The position numbers and the translations under genes were made by a program. Positions 18,100-28,587 of a stretch of 32,284 bases of DNA are shown here, piece after piece. Origin of the DNA: a virus (Duplodnaviria; Caudoviricetes); IMG/VR virus record IMGVR_UViG_3300031820_000012, positions 1 through 32,284 of that record; one strand, given 5' to 3'. The stretch's first letter is position 1; every line of letters starts with the position of its first letter. The notes below the pieces were generated by a model. The model saw only the letters and a program-made list of their open reading frames with translations. It made no database searches and was not told the DNA's origin.

Positions 18100-18447
18100 A
18101 TGTTCCAGCTGACAATCGTGATGCCGCAATCTCAAATCACTTGGGCGCTCACCTTCAAGGAAGAACAGACCGCCGTCGCAGCCTTCGCAAAATTCAAGGA
18201 CGAGCAGAGCAACCAAGTCGAGATCATCGACGACTTCGGCCAACGCTTTTACGGCGGACGATTCAAAGACGTGATGATGGAGGATCTCGAACAAACCAAA
18301 ACGCTATTCATCGATCGTCAGCTTCGCCAATGGCACACGCAAATCGATGCACAACGCGCTGCCGCAGCCGATCCCAAACTCAAGACAGAGATGATGCGGC
18401 GAGGGAACGGCGGACAACCAATGTTGACACCGCAATTCAACAGCTAG
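18100..18447 (+). CDS. Hypothetical protein
   Basis: AGGAG RBS plus ATG, 115 aa; stop overlaps the convergent portal stop. Confidence 0.75.
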   Translation: MFQLTIVMPQSQITWALTFKEEQTAVAAFAKFKDEQSNQVEIIDDFGQRFYGGRFKDVMMEDLEQTKTLFIDRQLRQWHTQIDAQRAAAADPKLKTEMMRRGNGGQPMLTPQFNS

Positions 18448-20195
18448 CGACGCCCGCCACCCGCAAGCAACTTGCGTTCCATGACGCGCTGAACGCCCTC
18501 GGGATCGCTCTTCAAGAGCATCTCGATCTGCTTCTGCTGCGCTTGCTGCATCTCTTTTTTCTCTGCTCGCGCGGCTTCTCGGTTCGGGAACGGCAGGTTG
18601 TCCAAGACGTAGTTCGGACCAACCACGCTGCCCTTCAATCCCGCCATAATCAGTTGCGCGTTGTCGTCATTGAAAATCGGCGATGACGAGTGGCTGTCAA
18701 CAGTCACGCGCCAATCTTGCGGCAAGTCGGTCAGCATGAACGCAGTGCCTTCCATATCTTCCGCGCTGACCCAATATCGCCGCTCTTCCTTTGCTTCCTT
18801 AATTTGAAGATGAAGGTCGGCTGCGTTGGCGCACTGACGTTCCACCAGTAACGCACGATCGCGCAGCGTTGGTGATGCCGTTTTCAGCAGCGTCGAAGCG
18901 TGAGAACCGGCACGCACGCCGGGCTCGCCCATGCCTTGCATGATGTTGGGAAAGCCGCCAAGCCAATTAATGGTTTCGATGAGCCACTTGATCAGAGGCA
19001 GCATCTCGGGCGGGAATTTCGGCGTGAGGTCGTTGACTTGACCGCCTTGCCCAACGTTCATATAACCGGTCGCGCGGAACCGCGCGAACAACTCGTCGGT
19101 CATCCCGTTTTCGCTGGCGAACGCGAGGATCTTATCGACTTGCAAACCGAACAAACGTTTGAGATCGTCGAGCCACGTACCCAACAGCCCTTGCGGCTCT
19201 ACGAGATCAACGAGTTCGCTGCGCCCCCAGAACCAATTCGTGACGACGTTTGCTTGGATCAGACGATACGGCTGAACCATGCTGCCTTCAACTTCTCCAT
19301 GTTCATCCTTGCTGCCAGGAATCAACAAATTCTCATGTTTATACAGCGGAGCAATGATGATATCAGGTTCAATCATAATGACCGTGACGTAATCGGTTTT
19401 CCCCTGTACCCACAACTCGTGAGCTTTGACCGTGGGCGCCATCACCGACGGTCCCATCACGGCATAATTGGGATCGTTGTTGAGTTGCACGATGCCGCCG
19501 GGCAACGGTCGCGTGCTCTGCTGCACGCCGGTCTGCAACTGCGATGACGACAACACCTGATGGAAAAAACTCTGCGGGTCGGCATTGCTGTTGCCGGTCA
19601 TCGCGTGCGCCGCAATGCGCTTGTACATCTCTTTGGCATTTGGCAAATGATAGATACGACGCCACACTTCCGGCATCGTCATTGTCGTCGTTTCGCACAC
19701 CGCCGGTTGCTTGTTGATGTCGTTTTCAGACTCGTTGTAGACGCCGAATTGCCAGGGCATGATCAACTTGGCGTAGTACGAAGGATGCAAATCCTTGCCT
19801 TCGGCCTGCACCCACTGCTTGAGCAAGGCAGAGCCATACTTCAATGACTCGAACACGCCTTGCCCAAACAGCAAATCCGTGTTGTTGCGCTCCCACGAAC
19901 GCGTCAACGCCGCACCAACGACCTTGGCTTGCTCCAATCGCGATTTTGGATACGCCAATTCGTAGTCGATCGTGAATTTCAATTCGACCGGACTAAACAA
20001 ATGCGCGGCTGTGCGCTCAAGCTGAAGATGCAGAAGGTTCAGCAGCGATTTCGTGCCGTCCGAGCGACCTGTCTCGGCAATCGCGTTCATCAGCTTGCAA
20101 TAGCTCGCACGAAGATCAACGCTCACGCGGCACTGTTGAATGAGTTCGTTGACTTCCGGCAATAATTTCTTTGGGTCGGTTGAAAGTTCAATCAT
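18444..20195 (-). CDS. Portal protein
   Basis: 583 aa downstream of TerL; NWFWGRSELVDLVEPQ and LGGFPNIMQG...VRAGSHA motifs typical of podovirus portals. Confidence 0.8.
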   Translation of the reverse strand: MIELSTDPKKLLPEVNELIQQCRVSVDLRASYCKLMNAIAETGRSDGTKSLLNLLHLQLERTAAHLFSPVELKFTIDYELAYPKSRLEQAKVVGAALTRSWERNNTDLLFGQGVFESLKYGSALLKQWVQAEGKDLHPSYYAKLIMPWQFGVYNESENDINKQPAVCETTTMTMPEVWRRIYHLPNAKEMYKRIAAHAMTGNSNADPQSFFHQVLSSSQLQTGVQQSTRPLPGGIVQLNNDPNYAVMGPSVMAPTVKAHELWVQGKTDYVTVIMIEPDIIIAPLYKHENLLIPGSKDEHGEVEGSMVQPYRLIQANVVTNWFWGRSELVDLVEPQGLLGTWLDDLKRLFGLQVDKILAFASENGMTDELFARFRATGYMNVGQGGQVNDLTPKFPPEMLPLIKWLIETINWLGGFPNIMQGMGEPGVRAGSHASTLLKTASPTLRDRALLVERQCANAADLHLQIKEAKEERRYWVSAEDMEGTAFMLTDLPQDWRVTVDSHSSSPIFNDDNAQLIMAGLKGSVVGPNYVLDNLPFPNREAARAEKKEMQQAQQKQIEMLLKSDPEGVQRVMERKLLAGGGRR

Positions 20196-20764
20196 CCTCG
20201 CCGCCTATAACCGGGTTGAGTTGTTTCGTTTCCGGGACGCTCAGACACAACGTCCGTCGGCAACCCCGGCAAATGCTTTGCCACCTGATGCTGGTGATAA
20301 TTATGTAATACGGTCCTCATTCTAGCACCGGCATTCGGTGCCGGCCCCGACATGACATCGGGCGACAGCATTGCGCCGTTCGCCTGAAAACCCATCGCGC
20401 GATCGGCGTTCGGCGCCGCCATAGCTCGCGTCACCTCATTGTTGATCGGCATGGCCGCAATCTCGGCATCCCGCCGATCATTCAGATTCGTGATCTTGAG
20501 GCCGCTCATATCCGATGCATCGCAGCCCGCCATCTCGGCTGCCGCATGCACGCGCTGCTCCGAAGCCGTCTCCATATCGCGATAAAGCCGATCATTGCTC
20601 TTTGTCGACGGCGACAAGATATTCGGCATGACGATATCGTCGTCGGCGCGATCGTTACCCACATACTCCCCGCACTCAGGACAATGCTTCGGCCATTGAT
20701 TTTTGTCCGAAAACTGCCACAAGAATTTCTCTTCGCAATGCGGGCACTTCAAACGAACGGCCAT
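20192..20764 (-). CDS. Zn-ribbon protein
   Basis: ATG 20764 overlaps the TerL stop (TAATG); CPHC...CPECG; 190 aa. Confidence 0.75.
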   Translation of the reverse strand: MAVRLKCPHCEEKFLWQFSDKNQWPKHCPECGEYVGNDRADDDIVMPNILSPSTKSNDRLYRDMETASEQRVHAAAEMAGCDASDMSGLKITNLNDRRDAEIAAMPINNEVTRAMAAPNADRAMGFQANGAMLSPDVMSGPAPNAGARMRTVLHNYHQHQVAKHLPGLPTDVVSERPGNETTQPGYRRRG

Positions 20765-22707
20765 TAGCGCCGACCTCCGAAACGTTGTTGCGGTTGAACC
20801 GTGAGACCCCCGCCGCGCCAGCTTTGATACGTCGCCTGCCGTTGCGCTATCATGCGGGCTTGCTGCTGCCGATTGAAAAACATGGTCAGTTGGTTTTGCT
20901 GGAACAAAGCAACTTGATCGGCAATCGCCATGTTCTGCCGGCGACGCTCGCCCAAACGCGTACGAGCTTGAGTAATAAGGTTGCGCCGCTCTTTCTCGTC
21001 CCAGCAATGCACGGCAAAAGCCATCGCCATTGCCCGGTCATCTTTCATCCCATCAGGCGCTTCGATCTTATCGCCTTGGCGAGCGATGGAATTGAACTCT
21101 GCAATCAAATCGAGAGAACGAATATGCAGCATGCCGTTCTGCACGTAGTTGCGCAGCGTCTCCATGAACGACACTTTGTTGGCGACCGTCGTCTTCAAAT
21201 GATAGTTGTGTCCCGGCGCCATCGAGTCGGCACGCGTCCAAATGAACGTGCGAACGTTGCGAAAAATATCATACATCCCGTCCTTGTACTCGCGCGGCTG
21301 CCGGCCATTCTCCAGCTGGTACCGCAGCGTCTTCAATGTGCGAAAAACGGAATCGCCGCCACCTTGGAGTTCAAGGACATAGCGAACCTGATTGGTGCCT
21401 TGCCCGTACCAGCCCAGGAGAGATGCCAAGACGTAAGCAAGATGCTGCGTCGTCACCAGCGTTGACGCATACTCCGCGACCTGATCCAAACCGTCGGCAT
21501 AGCAGCGACACACTTGAATTGATGCGCGGTCGTTGTCTTCGTTCTCGCCGTGTGCGGGATCGCAGGAAATGACATAGATGCCGCCGGTCGTAACCGGAGG
21601 CTCCCACACCTTCAACTGCACCATCTTGGAATTGGGAGCGCGCAAAATCTCGGTGTCGACGAACTCGTCACCCGTGAGATACATGTACGACTGATACTTA
21701 GTCGAAACATGCATGTTCGTCTGCTGCGTGAGCTTCTCGGGAGCGAAAAACGCAGCGCCGGTTTGCTGAAAAGCCTCTTCCTCGGTCCACGGCTGCTCTT
21801 GCACACGCAACGTAGATCCCGTGAACTCGGGCTCAGCGTCGCCTTCCTTCTCCGCTGTGGGGTCCATCTTGCGACGAACCCAGGCGAGTTGCTCGATCGT
21901 AACGTCGTGGCCGTACTGCCGCTTGACGGTCGCAATCTGATCCGCTTCCTTTTCGGATACGGGCGGCACGCCGTAACGCAGGAAGTCGGCATCGTCACGC
22001 ATAATGACTTGAGACGGCTTGGACCACCAACCCAAGAACAGACAGCCGCAATGCGGATCTTTCTTGGCGTCGAGCCACATGTGATACCAGCGATTAAAGC
22101 CACGAGCCGTCGACTCATAGATGTACAAACGATCAGGATTGGTGTCGGACAATGAGTTGTCGAATGCCTCAAGCCCTTCCTCATTATCGTACGAACAAAG
22201 CTCGGACAGATGAGCAAAGGCGAGACCCACGGATCGGCCGAGAACACCGGACCCTTTGGTCTTCTTGGTGCCGGCGCTCATGAACAAAACCTTGGAGTCG
22301 TTCTTGAGCGTAAGGCCGGATCGGTTGTTCCCCTTGATCCCCGGAAACTTGAGCGTCTTCGGAAGCGCCTTGATCATCACTTCCAACTCGGCGCGCGTCT
22401 CCACCTTGTTTTGATCGGTGTCGAAGACGACGGCGCCCTTCAATCCATCGAAGATCCCAAGCAGGAAGATCGTCATCGCGCGAGCGATCGTCGACAGCCC
22501 CAGCTGTCGGCTCTTGAGCACAAAGATTTTGTGGATGTCGCGTTCTAGGCAGTCGAAAACGAGCGTGATGAAACGCCGCTGCCCGTCATACAGGCGCTCG
22601 CCCAGGCAAGTGTATCCCGTGTCCTTGCTATAGATATAGCAACGGTTGAGAAACACATAAAACGCCTGCTCGACGCGCAAGCGTTTATCCCTGGACCATC
22701 CTGCCAT
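20764..22707 (-). CDS. terL: Terminase large subunit
   Basis: Walker A-like VLKSRQLGLST, Walker B AHLSE, coupling motif YESTARG, nuclease ISCDPA, LE and DDRAMA acidic residues. Confidence 0.93.
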   Translation of the reverse strand: MAGWSRDKRLRVEQAFYVFLNRCYIYSKDTGYTCLGERLYDGQRRFITLVFDCLERDIHKIFVLKSRQLGLSTIARAMTIFLLGIFDGLKGAVVFDTDQNKVETRAELEVMIKALPKTLKFPGIKGNNRSGLTLKNDSKVLFMSAGTKKTKGSGVLGRSVGLAFAHLSELCSYDNEEGLEAFDNSLSDTNPDRLYIYESTARGFNRWYHMWLDAKKDPHCGCLFLGWWSKPSQVIMRDDADFLRYGVPPVSEKEADQIATVKRQYGHDVTIEQLAWVRRKMDPTAEKEGDAEPEFTGSTLRVQEQPWTEEEAFQQTGAAFFAPEKLTQQTNMHVSTKYQSYMYLTGDEFVDTEILRAPNSKMVQLKVWEPPVTTGGIYVISCDPAHGENEDNDRASIQVCRCYADGLDQVAEYASTLVTTQHLAYVLASLLGWYGQGTNQVRYVLELQGGGDSVFRTLKTLRYQLENGRQPREYKDGMYDIFRNVRTFIWTRADSMAPGHNYHLKTTVANKVSFMETLRNYVQNGMLHIRSLDLIAEFNSIARQGDKIEAPDGMKDDRAMAMAFAVHCWDEKERRNLITQARTRLGERRRQNMAIADQVALFQQNQLTMFFNRQQQARMIAQRQATYQSWRGGGLTVQPQQRFGGRR

Positions 22708-25715: not shown

Positions 25716-25914
25716 CTTCGAGGATACTCCGATACTTCTTACGCAACTCGTCGGCGTCACACATGCGGTGATTGACAATCACCGAATCGATGGCACTTTT
25801 TTCATTCCACTGGTGGGTGTACTCGTTGGTATCGACGCGATAATGCAAAGGCTTTTCTTGCCTACACCACATGCAGACGGCTTTGATTTTTTCAAGCAAC
25901 TCGGATTTCGTCAC
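25690..25914 (-). CDS. Small Cys/His-containing hypothetical protein
   Basis: GGAG RBS plus GTG; CMWC...H...H...HRMC; 74 aa. Confidence 0.6.
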   Translation of the reverse strand: MTKSELLEKIKAVCMWCRQEKPLHYRVDTNEYTHQWNEKSAIDSVIVNHRMCDADELRKKYRSILEDGRPADCT

Positions 25915-26611
25915 CTGTAAACTCCTGCAAGTTCCGCTTGATCAACCGTCTCACTTGTGTGTTGCGAAAAAGATTGCCGCTCCGATCTCGATAGCCACGA
26001 GCATTGAGTTCACGACGAATAAAGTCAACAGCCATTTGCGATTGGAGGGATTGCACGCAATCCAATATCTCACGCTCTCGCGGATTTGCAACCAAGCGCG
26101 CGGCACGCCCCACGCCGTCAATTTGAAATCCGTACGGAGCTTCGCCGCCGACATGTCCACCGTTTGCTTTCTTTGCACGCTTCCCCCCGCTCACTCTCTC
26201 GATGATGCGACTGCGCTCCATCTGGGCAAAAACCGCACCGATCTGGAAAAAAGCCGTAGACATGGTTCCGTGAAGGACTGATTCAGGACCCATGTCGTAA
26301 AGAATGAGATCGACCTTGCGTCGCTTGAATTCTTCGGCCATCTGCAGAGCGTCGAGCGCAGTGCGAAACATGCGATCAAGCTTCGATGCAACGATGACAT
26401 CCCCCGCCGCCAAGCATTCGAGCATGCGCCCGCCGTTCGGGCGCTCGCCAAGAGGAATAGACCCGGAAACGTCAAGATCATACCATGTGACCACGTCCAT
26501 CGATCCAATGCCTTTGGCCATGGCAACAGAACGACAAATGCGTTCTTGGTCTTCAGGAGACGTATTCGTCTTTTGTTCATGCGTCGATACACGTACATAA
26601 CAATGCATCAT
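25892..26611 (-). CDS. Serine recombinase (resolvase domain plus short recombinase-type C-terminal domain)
   Basis: YVRVST.EQ catalytic motif, D.DVSG, RP, KLDRMFR, FAQMER..I.ER..G, then GG.APYGF and ELNARGY. ATG 26611 is coupled to the HNH stop. Confidence 0.9.
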   Translation of the reverse strand: MMHCYVRVSTHEQKTNTSPEDQERICRSVAMAKGIGSMDVVTWYDLDVSGSIPLGERPNGGRMLECLAAGDVIVASKLDRMFRTALDALQMAEEFKRRKVDLILYDMGPESVLHGTMSTAFFQIGAVFAQMERSRIIERVSGGKRAKKANGGHVGGEAPYGFQIDGVGRAARLVANPREREILDCVQSLQSQMAVDFIRRELNARGYRDRSGNLFRNTQVRRLIKRNLQEFTGDEIRVA

Positions 26612-27144
26612 GATACGTGCCCCCACGTCTTACGATCTCGAATATCGGCGATCGTTTTCAAAGTGACATTGAACCGTCGCGCAAGATTCGTCAAGCTAGG
26701 ATTTCGTAAAAGTGCTGTTCTGATTTGTCGTATTTGCCGTTCAGTAAACTTCGCATTTGGATGACTAGTCCCACGCATTTTCGGTGTTACGTCACAATGA
26801 CAGCGCGTACACAACCATTCGACTTTCAAAGCTTTCGAATGATCAGGATGATGCGCGTGTATCTTTACGCGCCCGAGTTTATCCAATCCTGGCTGTCTTC
26901 CACAACGTTGGCAATTTTTAGGACGAATCAACTTGCCGTTCGCTACAGCATTATTCGCGCGCGATCTAGCAAGTTCGGTAACAGGTAAACGTTTCAACGG
27001 CTTTTTTAAAACTACGCCCAAAGCAGATGCGCACTCGCGAGAACACACAAAACCAAATTTAGGTCGCGACGCCCATTGACTGCGTCTTGCTTGGCCTGCA
27101 GTCATTTTAAAACGTCGCTTACAATTTCCACAAACACCAAACAT
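26608..27144 (-). CDS. HNH-type endonuclease with N-terminal Zn motif and C-terminal HTH
   Basis: Start reassigned to ATG 27144. CGNC...CSREC; CQRCG...IHAHHPDHSKALKVEWLCTRCH; RGTSHPNAKFTE.QIRQIR...LARRFNV...I.DRKTWGHV as in phage homing endonucleases. Confidence 0.75.
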   Translation of the reverse strand: MFGVCGNCKRRFKMTAGQARRSQWASRPKFGFVCSRECASALGVVLKKPLKRLPVTELARSRANNAVANGKLIRPKNCQRCGRQPGLDKLGRVKIHAHHPDHSKALKVEWLCTRCHCDVTPKMRGTSHPNAKFTERQIRQIRTALLRNPSLTNLARRFNVTLKTIADIRDRKTWGHVS

Positions 27145-27154
27145 TGTATTGAGG

Positions 27155-27267
27155 CTCTCCCGGATGGATTTGAACCACCACGTCACACCGGATGTTCCGT
27201 TGGACAACAGGCGATAGCGAGTGGAGATCTCCATAACCTGTCGCGTCTACCATTCCGCCACGGGAGA
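27155..27267 (-). tRNA. Atypical type II (Leu-like body) tRNA or tRNA-like RNA with 25-nt anticodon region; anticodon unassignable
   Basis: Acceptor TCTCCCG/CGGGAGA, T8, D-arm GCG-GAATGGTAGA-CGC, anticodon stem ACAGG/CCTGT, long variable arm, T-arm GGTGG-TTCAAAT-CCATC, discriminator G followed by CCT. Confidence 0.8.
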
Positions 27268-27282
27268 AAATACATGCGACTT

Positions 27283-27310
27283 GCATTGCCGGTTCTCGGA
27301 CCGGCGCTGC
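27283..27310 (-). other. GC-rich hairpin in the leader of the tRNA-like gene
   Basis: GCA-GC-GCCGGT-CCGAGA-ACCGGC-AA-TGC between the epimerase stop and the tRNA 5' end. Confidence 0.4.
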
Positions 27311-27318
27311 GAACCCTC

Positions 27319-28329
27319 CTACACCATCCCTTTCTCAATCGGAGAATCTGTAGTCGTTCGCACTACAGTATCCGACTTTTTCTCATTTTGCAACTGCCGA
27401 AGTAGCCAATGATATGTCGGCTTCAAGCCGACATGCAAAACGGTACGCGGTGCCCACCCCAGTTCCTTAAGAATAAGTGTGTTGTCGGAATTGCGGCCGA
27501 AAACGCCGACATTGCCGGCAACGTACTTCTTGCCCACTTGCTTGTCCGCGACATAGCAAATGGTCTCGATGAGTTGATTGATCGTCACGAGTTGCGCCGA
27601 TCCAATATTGAGGATCTCACGGCAGTCGCTGCGCATCAGTCGTACGATCCCTTCGATCGCATCGTCGACATAAGTGAACGAGCGGCGCTGATGCCCATCA
27701 CCCCACACCTCGATCTCGCCCCACGCAGGAGCTTCGGCAACCTTGCAGCACAGCGCCATGACGGACTTGGCGCGGTCGCCGCGATAAGGCGCACAGGGAC
27801 CGTAAGTGTTGTGAAGCCGGCCGATGCGGATCGTCATTCCGTAATTGCGAGCGTGTGCGAGATACAGCGCCTCCGCAAAGAGTTTCTCGCGAGCAAATGC
27901 GTTGCTCGGGAAATAGCCTTCCGTCAAACTTTCCCTCGCTCCATCGCCCTGCGTATCGGGATAGACGCAAGCGGACGACGCGAAGAAAATGCGCTTCGCT
28001 CCAAATTGCTTGCACCAATCCAACACGTTGGCGTTGATGCGCGAAGAGTTCGCGAGGATGTGTGCATCGTTGTCGGAATTGCCGATATACCCCATGCCCC
28101 CGACCTCGCCGGCAAGCTGGTAGACCTCGTCAGCATCGGCAAAAATGAATCGTGCTTCGCTGGCGAGCAATGAACGCGTCAAATCGTGACAAAGAAAACT
28201 ATCACAACTGACGGGACCGTAATCCTGTTGCCTGCGACTGACACCAATGACTTGATGCCCCTCGCGCTTGAGACGATTGCAGAGGTGGAAGCCGAGGAAG
28301 CCCCCGGCTCCAAGAACGACGCACTTCAT
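27319..28329 (-). CDS. NAD-dependent epimerase/dehydratase, GDP-mannose 3,5-epimerase-like (atypical active site)
   Basis: GAGGFLG, YQLAGEVGGMGYI, FASSACVYP, RLHNTYGP, VWGDGHQRRSFTYVDD, GVFGRNSDNTLI...LGWAP; YxxxK position reads FAREK. Confidence 0.88.
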   Translation of the reverse strand: MKCVVLGAGGFLGFHLCNRLKREGHQVIGVSRRQQDYGPVSCDSFLCHDLTRSLLASEARFIFADADEVYQLAGEVGGMGYIGNSDNDAHILANSSRINANVLDWCKQFGAKRIFFASSACVYPDTQGDGARESLTEGYFPSNAFAREKLFAEALYLAHARNYGMTIRIGRLHNTYGPCAPYRGDRAKSVMALCCKVAEAPAWGEIEVWGDGHQRRSFTYVDDAIEGIVRLMRSDCREILNIGSAQLVTINQLIETICYVADKQVGKKYVAGNVGVFGRNSDNTLILKELGWAPRTVLHVGLKPTYHWLLRQLQNEKKSDTVVRTTTDSPIEKGMV

Positions 28330-28338
28330 TGCGACCTC

Positions 28339-28587
28339 TTAGGACGTGAGTTCTTTGACGATCCACATCACGGACTGCTCAAGCGCCGTGATGGCGAGAG
28401 CGTTGTAGCGTCCGGCCTTGACCTTCGCATACAACGCTTCCATCGTTTCGGCGTGAGACTTGATCTCGTCGTGAAGCGCCTTTTCCTCGGTCGTCAACGC
28501 GCGATAGCGCGGACGAAAGCGGCTCGTCGGCATCTTGGTATCGTCGCTTTGACGGGCATCCGGCTTGCCTTCAAACAGGTTTGTCAT
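28339..28587 (-). CDS. Acb2/Tad1-like cyclic-nucleotide sponge (anti-defence) protein
   Basis: YRALTTEEKALHDEIK resembles the Acb2 N-terminal YRxLSxEE helix; RYNALAITALEQSVMW resembles the Acb2/Tad1 second helix; 82 aa. Confidence 0.7.
   Translation of the reverse strand: MTNLFEGKPDARQSDDTKMPTSRFRPRYRALTTEEKALHDEIKSHAETMEALYAKVKAGRYNALAITALEQSVMWIVKELTS

What the first reader, a model, noticed from the sequence alone, without database searches (positions are those of the whole stretch)
27155..27267. tRNA-like RNA with intact elbow but an anticodon arm extended by 18 nt
Seen: all four stems pair and the D-loop GG and T-loop TTCAAAT are intact, yet 25 nt (TTATGGAGATCTCCACTCGCTATCG, 27236-27212) replace the 7-nt loop. 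They can fold as 9 further stacked positions (7 paired, including G-U) capped by a 7-nt loop TCTCCAC. The variable arm is also long with its own hairpin, and the encoded end is G-CCT. Intact stems argue for selection rather than decay. Inference: a non-decoding tRNA mimic (decoy for anticodon nucleases, synthetase or T-box ligand, or an RNase P/Z processing signal), or a tRNA with a mini-intron that bacteria are not known to splice.
Basis: partly seen in the sequence, partly recalled or inferred. Interest (0 to 1): 0.8.

Follow-up and report, generated by a model that had tools for sequence, protein, structure and literature searches.

The report
Non-decoding tRNA-shaped phage RNA gene
A soil phage carries a 116-base gene with the intact outer body of a leucine transfer RNA but an over-long arm where the codon reader should be; it is built like phage T5's long-unexplained RNA1, belongs to a large family of such phage genes, and likely yields a stable RNA that carries no amino acid and cannot read codons.

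Summary
On the minus strand, 27267-27152 is a complete tRNA-Leu-type shell (acceptor, D and T arms, A15:U48) with 25 nt where the 7-nt anticodon loop belongs. The extension's own fold is plausible but not beyond chance (p 0.14-0.18).

It is neither a spliced mini-intron nor, as far as one run shows, an assembly error. It belongs to a large family without its own Rfam entry (about 890 IMG/VR stretches estimated) whose shells covary while the middles are mostly unrelated. A model built without it scores it 55 bits. That model's best hit in T5's tRNA region is RNA1, annotated 'tRNA-like stable RNA with unknown functions', with the same layout.

This copy is a singleton, absent from 10 of 10 near-complete related phages, so selection on it is not shown, and no RNA data exist. 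G73 and C2-G71 predict no charging.

Most likely it is cut out by host tRNA-processing nucleases as a stable, uncharged carrier of its insert; a decoy role in phage-host conflict is my best guess and untested. This scan reported the family before on other DNA.

The parts
27152..27267 (-). tRNA-Leu-shaped RNA gene, 116 nt including G73-CCT
   Evidence: Sequence and fold; family model built without it scores 55.1 bits, E 1e-13, next hit in the window 9.1 bits
27261..27267 (-). Acceptor stem 5' strand (U1, C2, U3)
   Evidence: 7 of 7 pairs, pair probabilities 0.87-1.0
27243..27258 (-). Leu-type D arm: 3-bp stem, A14, A15 (27253), G18G19 (27251-27250)
   Evidence: Sequence; matches the family's invariant columns
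27207..27241 (-). Extended anticodon arm: 5-bp stem plus 25-nt insert (27236-27212) with 7-nt tip loop (27227-27221) lacking U33
   Evidence: Predicted fold, pair probabilities 0.79-0.96; not better than shuffled inserts, p 0.14-0.18; no bulge-helix-bulge
27180..27206 (-). Long variable region (27 nt) with predicted hairpin, ending in U48 (27180), the partner of A15
   Evidence: Pair probabilities about 0.4-0.55; U48 in 86 of 86 family members where it was not forced
27163..27179 (-). T arm, 5-bp stem with one G-U pair and canonical loop
   Evidence: Sequence, fold
27152..27162 (-). Acceptor 3' strand, G73 and CCT; also the only Shine-Dalgarno-like stretch before the ATG at 27144
   Evidence: predicted unpaired probability 0.01-0.07 over 27163-27156
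27348..27393 (-). Promoter-like site (-35 at 27393-27388, 17-nt spacer, -10 at 27370-27365) overlapping a 7+7+7 dyad (27368-27348); inferred
   Evidence: Read by eye from the alignment with 5 related junctions; the consensus scan found 0 promoter sites here
26608..27144 (-). HNH-like endonuclease gene directly downstream; likely start at 27144, not at the in-frame ATG inside the insert
   Evidence: PHROG 2340 E 1e-12 and PHROG 20467; 2 of 2 homologues begin at about this Met
27319..28329 (-). NAD-dependent sugar epimerase gene, upstream neighbour
   Evidence: PF01370 E 2e-44
25892..26626 (-). Serine recombinase (resolvase family) gene
   Evidence: PF00239 E 6e-27

Best explanation
This is a phage gene with a complete tRNA-Leu-type shell and no usable anticodon, a member of a large family laid out like phage T5 RNA1, and it is likely cut out of its transcript by the host's tRNA-processing nucleases as a stable, uncharged RNA whose job would lie in the insert it carries. 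Shown: the shell; the missing anticodon loop; family membership; absence from related phages, so it is a separate insertion at the epimerase-HNH junction. Inferred, with my odds: it cannot decode (0.95); it is transcribed from the promoter-like site about 90 nt upstream and processed by RNase P and a 3' nuclease (0.7); it is not aminoacylated (0.7); in the family the shell is a stabilising carrier for an exchangeable insert (0.6); that insert acts in trans as a decoy or ligand in phage-host conflict (0.3, the single most likely job). [quoted passage not shown]
For: Family: 119 loci from 9 of 64 parts of IMG/VR, about 890 estimated. In the 86 distinct ones with an intact D strand, acceptor positions that the pattern did not fix pair at 95% against 65% with shuffled partners (maximum 71% in 2000), and U48 is kept in 86 of 86. 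Middles of the 40 members with the commonest acceptor are no more alike than shuffled ones (48.6% against 48.5%). Membership: 55.1 bits with a model built without it. T5 RNA1, annotated as a tRNA-like stable RNA, is that model's best of 21 hits in the T5 region, 45.0 bits against 38.5 for T5's tRNA-Leu, and has the same order of parts. In T5 and 9 relatives the extended arm shows two-sided pair changes at 6 positions and a nearly invariant tip, so such an insert can be under selection. Four gut-phage loci with the same flanking genes and shell carry three unrelated middles. G73 and C2-G71 are listed as antideterminants for E. coli LeuRS and SerRS (PMC9976931). RNase P binds the T-loop elbow (PMC11143913 passage).
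Against: No orthologue of this copy was found, so nothing shows selection on it or covariation in its extension. The extension folds no better than 14-18% of shuffles, and family middles are only weakly structured on average (median z -0.5). The promoter is below the scan's threshold. The 3' end is CCT, and CCA favours RNase P cleavage in a T4 example, though only 8 of 86 members encode C75. The model also scores a canonical tRNA-Leu well (T4, 46.6 bits), so membership rests on shell plus missing loop. Charging rules come from E. coli and the host is unknown. The decoy role has no direct evidence.
Confidence: 0.55

Rival explanations
1. The shell works in cis as a cut-here and translation-control signal (like organellar t-elements or the hairpins that hide T4 homing-endonuclease ribosome-binding sites). 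The insert is mostly filler, and here the shell damps the HNH gene.
For: The acceptor 3' strand is the only Shine-Dalgarno-like stretch before ATG 27144, is predicted paired, resembles the site that relatives use at this junction and ranks first of 153 family acceptor strands in pairing to the 16S tail. Such hairpins are known for I-TevI and mobE and implicated for segB (PMC3014915 passages). Members often sit between small genes.
Against: Only 3 of 153 members have such a motif in the acceptor, so it is not the family's job, and 4 of 7 related junctions without the element also have a predicted paired site. Three related phages keep the HNH gene without the element. The conserved, covarying insert of T5-like RNA1 is not explained.
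Confidence: 0.2
2. It is a recently arrived passenger, a small mobile or hitch-hiking element that exploits host tRNA processing to be harmless, with no benefit to this phage.
For: Absent from 10 of 10 near-complete relatives and 4 of 4 partial ones; the epimerase-to-HNH gap is 174 nt here against 29 and 37 nt in two relatives; the same shell and middle turn up in different flanks in gut phages; 112 of 128 middle clusters are singletons.
Against: No target duplication or mobilising gene was identified, and it does not travel with the HNH gene. T5-like phages keep RNA1 in 487 records with covariation.
Confidence: 0.15
3. It is a decayed tRNA-Leu pseudogene with a chance insertion in the anticodon loop.
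For: Singleton; G73 and CCT instead of A73 and CCA; extension fold not significant.
Against: All 15 shell pairs and the tertiary bases are intact; no recognisable Leu anticodon can be restored; the relatives examined carry almost no tRNA genes to decay from (1 tRNA-Gln in 31 loci; 0 of 5 genomes); the family's shell covaries.
Confidence: 0.07
4. It is a pre-tRNA with an 18-nt intron that is spliced to give a working tRNA.
For: The first 7 nt of the insert look like a loop (U33, purine 37), and a cut after position 37 would be the canonical archaeal and eukaryotic site (site from the PMC4090602 abstract). A few family look-alikes have a hairpin inside a recognisable Leu anticodon loop (L292, L180).
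Against: No bulge-helix-bulge; the product would have anticodon AUG on a Leu-type body without His identity elements; 18 nt is far too short for a self-splicing intron (established knowledge); no splicing endonuclease or RNA ligase among the 38 ORFs scanned, though the contig is only about half the genome.
Confidence: 0.03

Closest known systems
Phage T5 RNA1 (NC_005859 30501-30644, annotated 'tRNA-like stable RNA with unknown functions')
   Same: Leu-type D arm, 5-bp anticodon stem closing a long insert, variable hairpin, two unpaired bases ending in U48, T arm; best hit of the family model in the T5 region; similar bases around the tip loop.
   Different: No overall sequence homology found (one search did not list it); T5's insert is longer and has internal loops; RNA1 sits in a tRNA cluster and is kept in 487 phage records, while this copy stands alone and is unique.
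Phage T4 species 1 RNA (rnaC, NC_000866 70908-71046)
   Same: Stable phage RNA of unknown role (PMC3014915, PMC9697503 passages) with a T arm and acceptor-like end.
   Different: No Leu-type D arm; scores only 24.5 bits with several broken pairs.
Bacterial type II tRNA-Leu
   Same: D-arm sequence, A15:U48, 7/5 acceptor branch, long variable arm.
   Different: No 7-nt anticodon loop, G73 instead of A73, no encoded CCA; not called by ARAGORN or Rfam.
Allo-tRNAs and selC* tRNAs (Mukai et al., PMC5389517)
   Same: Odd cloverleaves with long variable arms, some in phages.
   Different: Those have 8/4 or 9/3 acceptor branches, tRNA-Sec-like D arms and real anticodons (passages); this one is 7/5 with no anticodon loop.
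Hairpins hiding ribosome-binding sites of phage homing endonucleases (I-TevI, mobE, segB) and organellar t-elements
   Same: A structure covers the predicted ribosome-binding site of an HNH gene, and a tRNA-like fold could mark a cut site.
   Different: Here the cover is a whole tRNA shell, and relatives keep the HNH gene without it.

Membership tests
Phage tRNA-Leu-shaped non-decoding RNAs (T5 RNA1 type; no Rfam family) | Paired 7-bp acceptor, Leu-type D arm and T arm | tested here: met
   (55.1 bits, model built without it)
Phage tRNA-Leu-shaped non-decoding RNAs (T5 RNA1 type; no Rfam family) | A15:U48 and G18G19 with T-loop elbow bases kept | tested here: met
   A at 27253, U at 27180; U48 in 86 of 86 members
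Phage tRNA-Leu-shaped non-decoding RNAs (T5 RNA1 type; no Rfam family) | Anticodon loop replaced by a long insert unrelated to other members | tested here: met
   63-nt middle; best identity to any of 150 other middles 57%, no cluster
Phage tRNA-Leu-shaped non-decoding RNAs (T5 RNA1 type; no Rfam family) | A73, the usual discriminator in the family (75 of 86) | tested here: not met
   G73 here; a minority state, 3 of 86 and 15 of 155
Phage tRNA-Leu-shaped non-decoding RNAs (T5 RNA1 type; no Rfam family) | Accumulates as a discrete stable RNA | not testable with these tools
   Only a DNA run was available
Canonical type II tRNA-Leu | 7-nt anticodon loop with U33 on a 5-bp stem | tested here: not met
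   25 nt; tip loop has C at the U33 place
Canonical type II tRNA-Leu | A73 identity element for LeuRS | tested here: not met
   G73, listed as an antideterminant
tRNA-Ser (SerRS substrate) | Long variable arm and G73, with G2-C71 and without C2-G71 | tested here: not met
   Long arm and G73 present, but C2-G71 is the listed antideterminant
Archaeal or eukaryotic intron-containing tRNA | Bulge-helix-bulge at the splice sites | tested here: not met
   0 full motifs; 2 weak half motifs
Group I or II intron-containing bacterial tRNA | Ribozyme core of some hundreds of bases | tested here: not met
   Insert is 18 nt over the norm; no Rfam hit
Allo-tRNA | 8/4 or 9/3 acceptor branch and tRNA-Sec-like D arm | tested here: not met
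   7/5 branch, 3-bp D stem
RNase P/Z processing signal (t-element) | Cleavage at the shell's ends in a longer transcript | not testable with these tools
   Elbow and acceptor present; no RNA ends available

The most novel reading that the evidence does not exclude
Phages use a leucine-tRNA shell as a natural, swappable display scaffold: host enzymes cut it out and stabilise it, and the exchangeable insert is the weapon. This copy would be kept uncharged by two antideterminants and would show a tip loop of the same kind as T5 RNA1 (shared closing pairs and loop bases), blocking a host factor that senses or cuts tRNA. That would give a function to the long-unexplained tRNA-like RNAs of T5 and to hundreds of unannotated phage genes.
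Probability: 0.2. Interest if true: 0.8.

Novelty: new member of a known kind. Interest (0 to 1): 0.42.

Why it matters
Standard tRNA finders miss these genes (ARAGORN called 0 of the 60 matches tested), yet one exact pattern finds hundreds in viral contigs, and a cultured Bacteroides phage carries one unannotated. Linking them to T5 RNA1 makes an old unexplained RNA testable in a laboratory phage. This copy adds a likely uncharged variant in a phage group that otherwise lacks the element. On its own it is a singleton without expression data, so it is a weaker test object than T5 or BS-TP2.

Tried and rejected
Orthologue hunt: BLASTN against 50,697 phage records gave only short D-arm or chance matches. 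An exact pattern for this arm found 0 in IMG/VR. 31 terminase-linked loci, 14 related records (own contig as positive control) and 45 HNH-linked loci other than the window's own (best 21 bits) hold no Leu-type shell.

Travelling with the HNH gene: rejected, because 3 distinct relatives have the HNH gene at the same place without the shell, and 0 of 35 downstream ORFs of other members matched an HNH family.

Fusion ORF from the ATG inside the insert (27234): rejected, because homologues start near 27144.

Antisense target in the window: longest match 10 nt, reached by 274 of 300 shuffles; only half the genome is held.

Attachment site for the neighbouring recombinase: unlikely, because relatives have the recombinase without the shell.

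A known Rfam family: 20 member loci hit the generic tRNA model, with no other family at its cut-off.

Expression: no RNA holder listed, which is no evidence either way.

ARAGORN with introns at a lowered threshold gave 81 noise calls and was not used. The pair counts are partly circular (rows were picked for pairing), so one search is used instead.

Literature: 10 searches listed no paper describing this family or the function of T5 RNA1; older T5 and T4 papers are mostly outside the library, and no supplements were read.

Full report
Observation. The feature is on the minus strand at 27267-27152 and is as described: a 7-bp acceptor, a 3-bp D stem with G18G19, a 5-bp stem closing 25 nt, a 27-nt variable region, a T arm, and G73-CCT. 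The predicted fold stacks 9 more positions (7 paired) under a 7-nt tip loop. The shell is beyond chance: 2 of 300 shuffled windows give a loose shell and 0 of 300 the strict D arm. The extension's fold is not: 14-18% of 2000 shuffled inserts do as well, although both arms together reach z -2.1. ARAGORN and Rfam do not call it. A second assembly of run X1, possibly the same source data, spans the region without indel or joint.

Setting. The window is about half of a phage genome (completeness 50%), with a major head protein match, an Acb2/Tad1-family gene, an epimerase, an HNH-like gene and a serine recombinase nearby. The host is unknown. The element lies between the epimerase and the HNH-like gene, whose likely start is 27144, since 2 of 2 homologues begin about there. 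Thirty-one related loci were fetched through the predicted terminase, at 41-63% identity. In four of them the epimerase leads straight into the recombinase. Three distinct relatives have the HNH gene at this junction without any shell; the gap is 29 and 37 nt in two of them against 174 nt here. The family model finds nothing in 10 of 10 near-complete and 4 of 4 partial relatives, while it rings on the window's own contig. The element is therefore a separate insertion. It sits behind a promoter-like site and dyad that align with the relatives' junctions; that site is my reading, and the consensus scan found none.

The family. A pattern made of the D-arm end, 52-80 free bases and the T loop gave 119 loci in 9 of 64 parts of IMG/VR, about 890 estimated. 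It also gave 112 loci in bacterial and archaeal genomes, many of them chance joins or likely archaeal intron tRNAs. Of the 120 viral matches I dropped 18 lacking an intact 5' D strand and collapsed duplicates to 86. In these the acceptor, which the pattern did not constrain, pairs at 95% against 65% with shuffled partners; U48 is present in 86 of 86, A73 in 75, G73 in 3 and C75 in 8. The middles of the 40 members with the commonest acceptor are as unlike as shuffled ones. ARAGORN called none of the 60 matches tested, and Rfam offers only the generic tRNA model for 20 loci tested. A covariance model from 48 members, without the window's copy, scores it 55.1 bits against 9.1 for the next site. 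The model also scores T4's real tRNA-Leu at 46.6 bits, so membership means shell plus missing loop. Its middle matches no other member (best 57% among 151 elements).

What varies and what is kept. Four gut-phage loci with the same flanking genes and nearly the same shell carry three unrelated middles, and two of those middles recur in other flanks. One such member is unannotated in the cultured phage BS-TP2. The model's best of 21 hits in T5's tRNA region is RNA1, at 45.0 bits, above T5's tRNA-Leu. The record calls it a tRNA-like stable RNA with unknown functions, and it has the same order of parts as this element. RNA1 has matches in 487 phage records. In T5 and 9 relatives picked from the 25 listed, the extended arm shows two-sided changes at 6 pairs and a nearly invariant tip. 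An insert of this kind can therefore be under selection, but that is shown for T5's family, not for this copy.

Mechanism. It cannot decode: the arm is 9 positions too long and the tip lacks U33 (sequence; ribosome geometry is established knowledge). Splicing is unlikely: there is no bulge-helix-bulge, and only 2 of 8 excisions give a proper loop, both with anticodon AUG on a Leu-type body. What the family keeps (acceptor, elbow, A15:U48) is what tRNA-processing enzymes read; RNase P stacks on the elbow (PMC11143913 passages). I infer excision as a stable RNA. Leucine and serine synthetases do not need the anticodon, but this copy has G73 and C2-G71, listed as E. coli antideterminants against them (PMC9976931 passages and Table 3), so it is predicted uncharged. 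Wholesale exchange of inserts together with their conservation within a lineage fits a carrier of a functional cargo better than a bare cut signal. A decoy role in phage-host conflict is my best single guess (0.3), with no direct evidence. Locally, the acceptor's 3' strand is the only ribosome-binding-like site of the HNH gene and is predicted paired, as known for some T4-type homing endonucleases (PMC3014915 passages). The control is weak: 4 of 7 junctions without the element are predicted paired too, and only 3 of 153 members have such a motif.

Against my reading. There is no orthologue, no covariation for this insert and no RNA data. The copy is unique among the relatives examined, which also fits a recent passenger. 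The family's middles are only weakly structured on average (median z -0.5). The likeness of the tip to T5-like RNA1 (64 of 20000 shuffles; 0 of 141 other members) was noticed after the fact, and a search for it gave 25 records that by size and match length look T5-like, which I did not verify.

Papers. I saw search listings for ten searches and passages only of PMC5389517, PMC9697503, PMC3014915, PMC9976931, PMC7824862 (nothing on point) and PMC11143913. None of what I saw describes this family or a function for T5 RNA1. tRNA position numbering, the size of self-splicing introns and the 16S tail motif are from my own knowledge.

Verdict. Real, non-decoding, and a new member of a known but unexplained kind, which this scan has reported several times on other DNA. 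The family deserves attention; this singleton is a modest addition. Interest 0.42.

Noticed in passing
window 28339-28587 (-): Acb2/Tad1 hairpin-domain gene (PF24729, 47 bits, cut-off 27), a likely anti-defence nucleotide sponge about 1 kb upstream of the RNA gene.
   Followed up: no
window 27348-27368 (-); L144 and L155 at the epimerase-recombinase junction: A 7+7+7 dyad overlapping the promoter-like site is shared with relatives and may be the recombinase's own binding site.
   Followed up: partly
window 27222-27233: Perfect 12-bp palindrome inside the insert, one of 11 in the window; could allow dimer pairing, may be chance.
   Followed up: partly
window 27189-27198 and 27219-27229 (-); L390 3502-3645: A 10-nt stretch of the variable arm is identical to T5 RNA1's tip (14 of 5000 shuffles), and the tip loop resembles that of T5-like RNA1; both noticed after the fact.
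   Followed up: partly
window 27270-27345 (-): The leader between the dyad and the shell is predicted to hold small hairpins, one with 6 perfect pairs; it is absent from relatives and has no Rfam match.
   Followed up: no
L008, L014, L190 (middles); L177, L193 (middles): Two small subfamilies share a middle across different shells, with what look by eye like compensatory changes and crossing pairings (possible pseudoknots).
   Followed up: no
family middles, 141 elements: The motif TGGT is enriched (50 against 33 expected, 1 of 200 shuffles). It is complementary to a tRNA's ACCA end, but may come from duplicated D-loop pieces; it is absent from the window's middle.
   Followed up: partly
L292 1001-1121 (-), L180 1485-1601 (+), L275 286-402 (+), L191 1487-1600 (-): Leu-type shells with a long, near-perfect hairpin inserted in the anticodon loop; in L292 it splits a recognisable UAA anticodon, and L275 has a 5-bp direct repeat at the ends.
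   Followed up: no
L036, L068, L106, L109, L114, L119: Matches whose 5' side lacks the usual D strand and shares another G-rich motif; possibly members with an insert in the D loop.
   Followed up: no
L372 1187-1287 (+): A 101-nt tRNA-shaped element with a different D arm and long middle, about 210 nt upstream of a distant HNH match.
   Followed up: no
L389 3001-3121 (Bacteroides phage BS-TP2): Unannotated family member in a cultured phage, directly before a NinG/Rap nuclease gene and an HNH gene.
   Followed up: partly
window 20764-22707 and 18444-20195 (-): Conserved packaging-region genes, probably large terminase and portal by position and look, with no Pfam, PHROG or NCBIfam match but 31 relatives in IMG/VR for the first.
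   Followed up: partly
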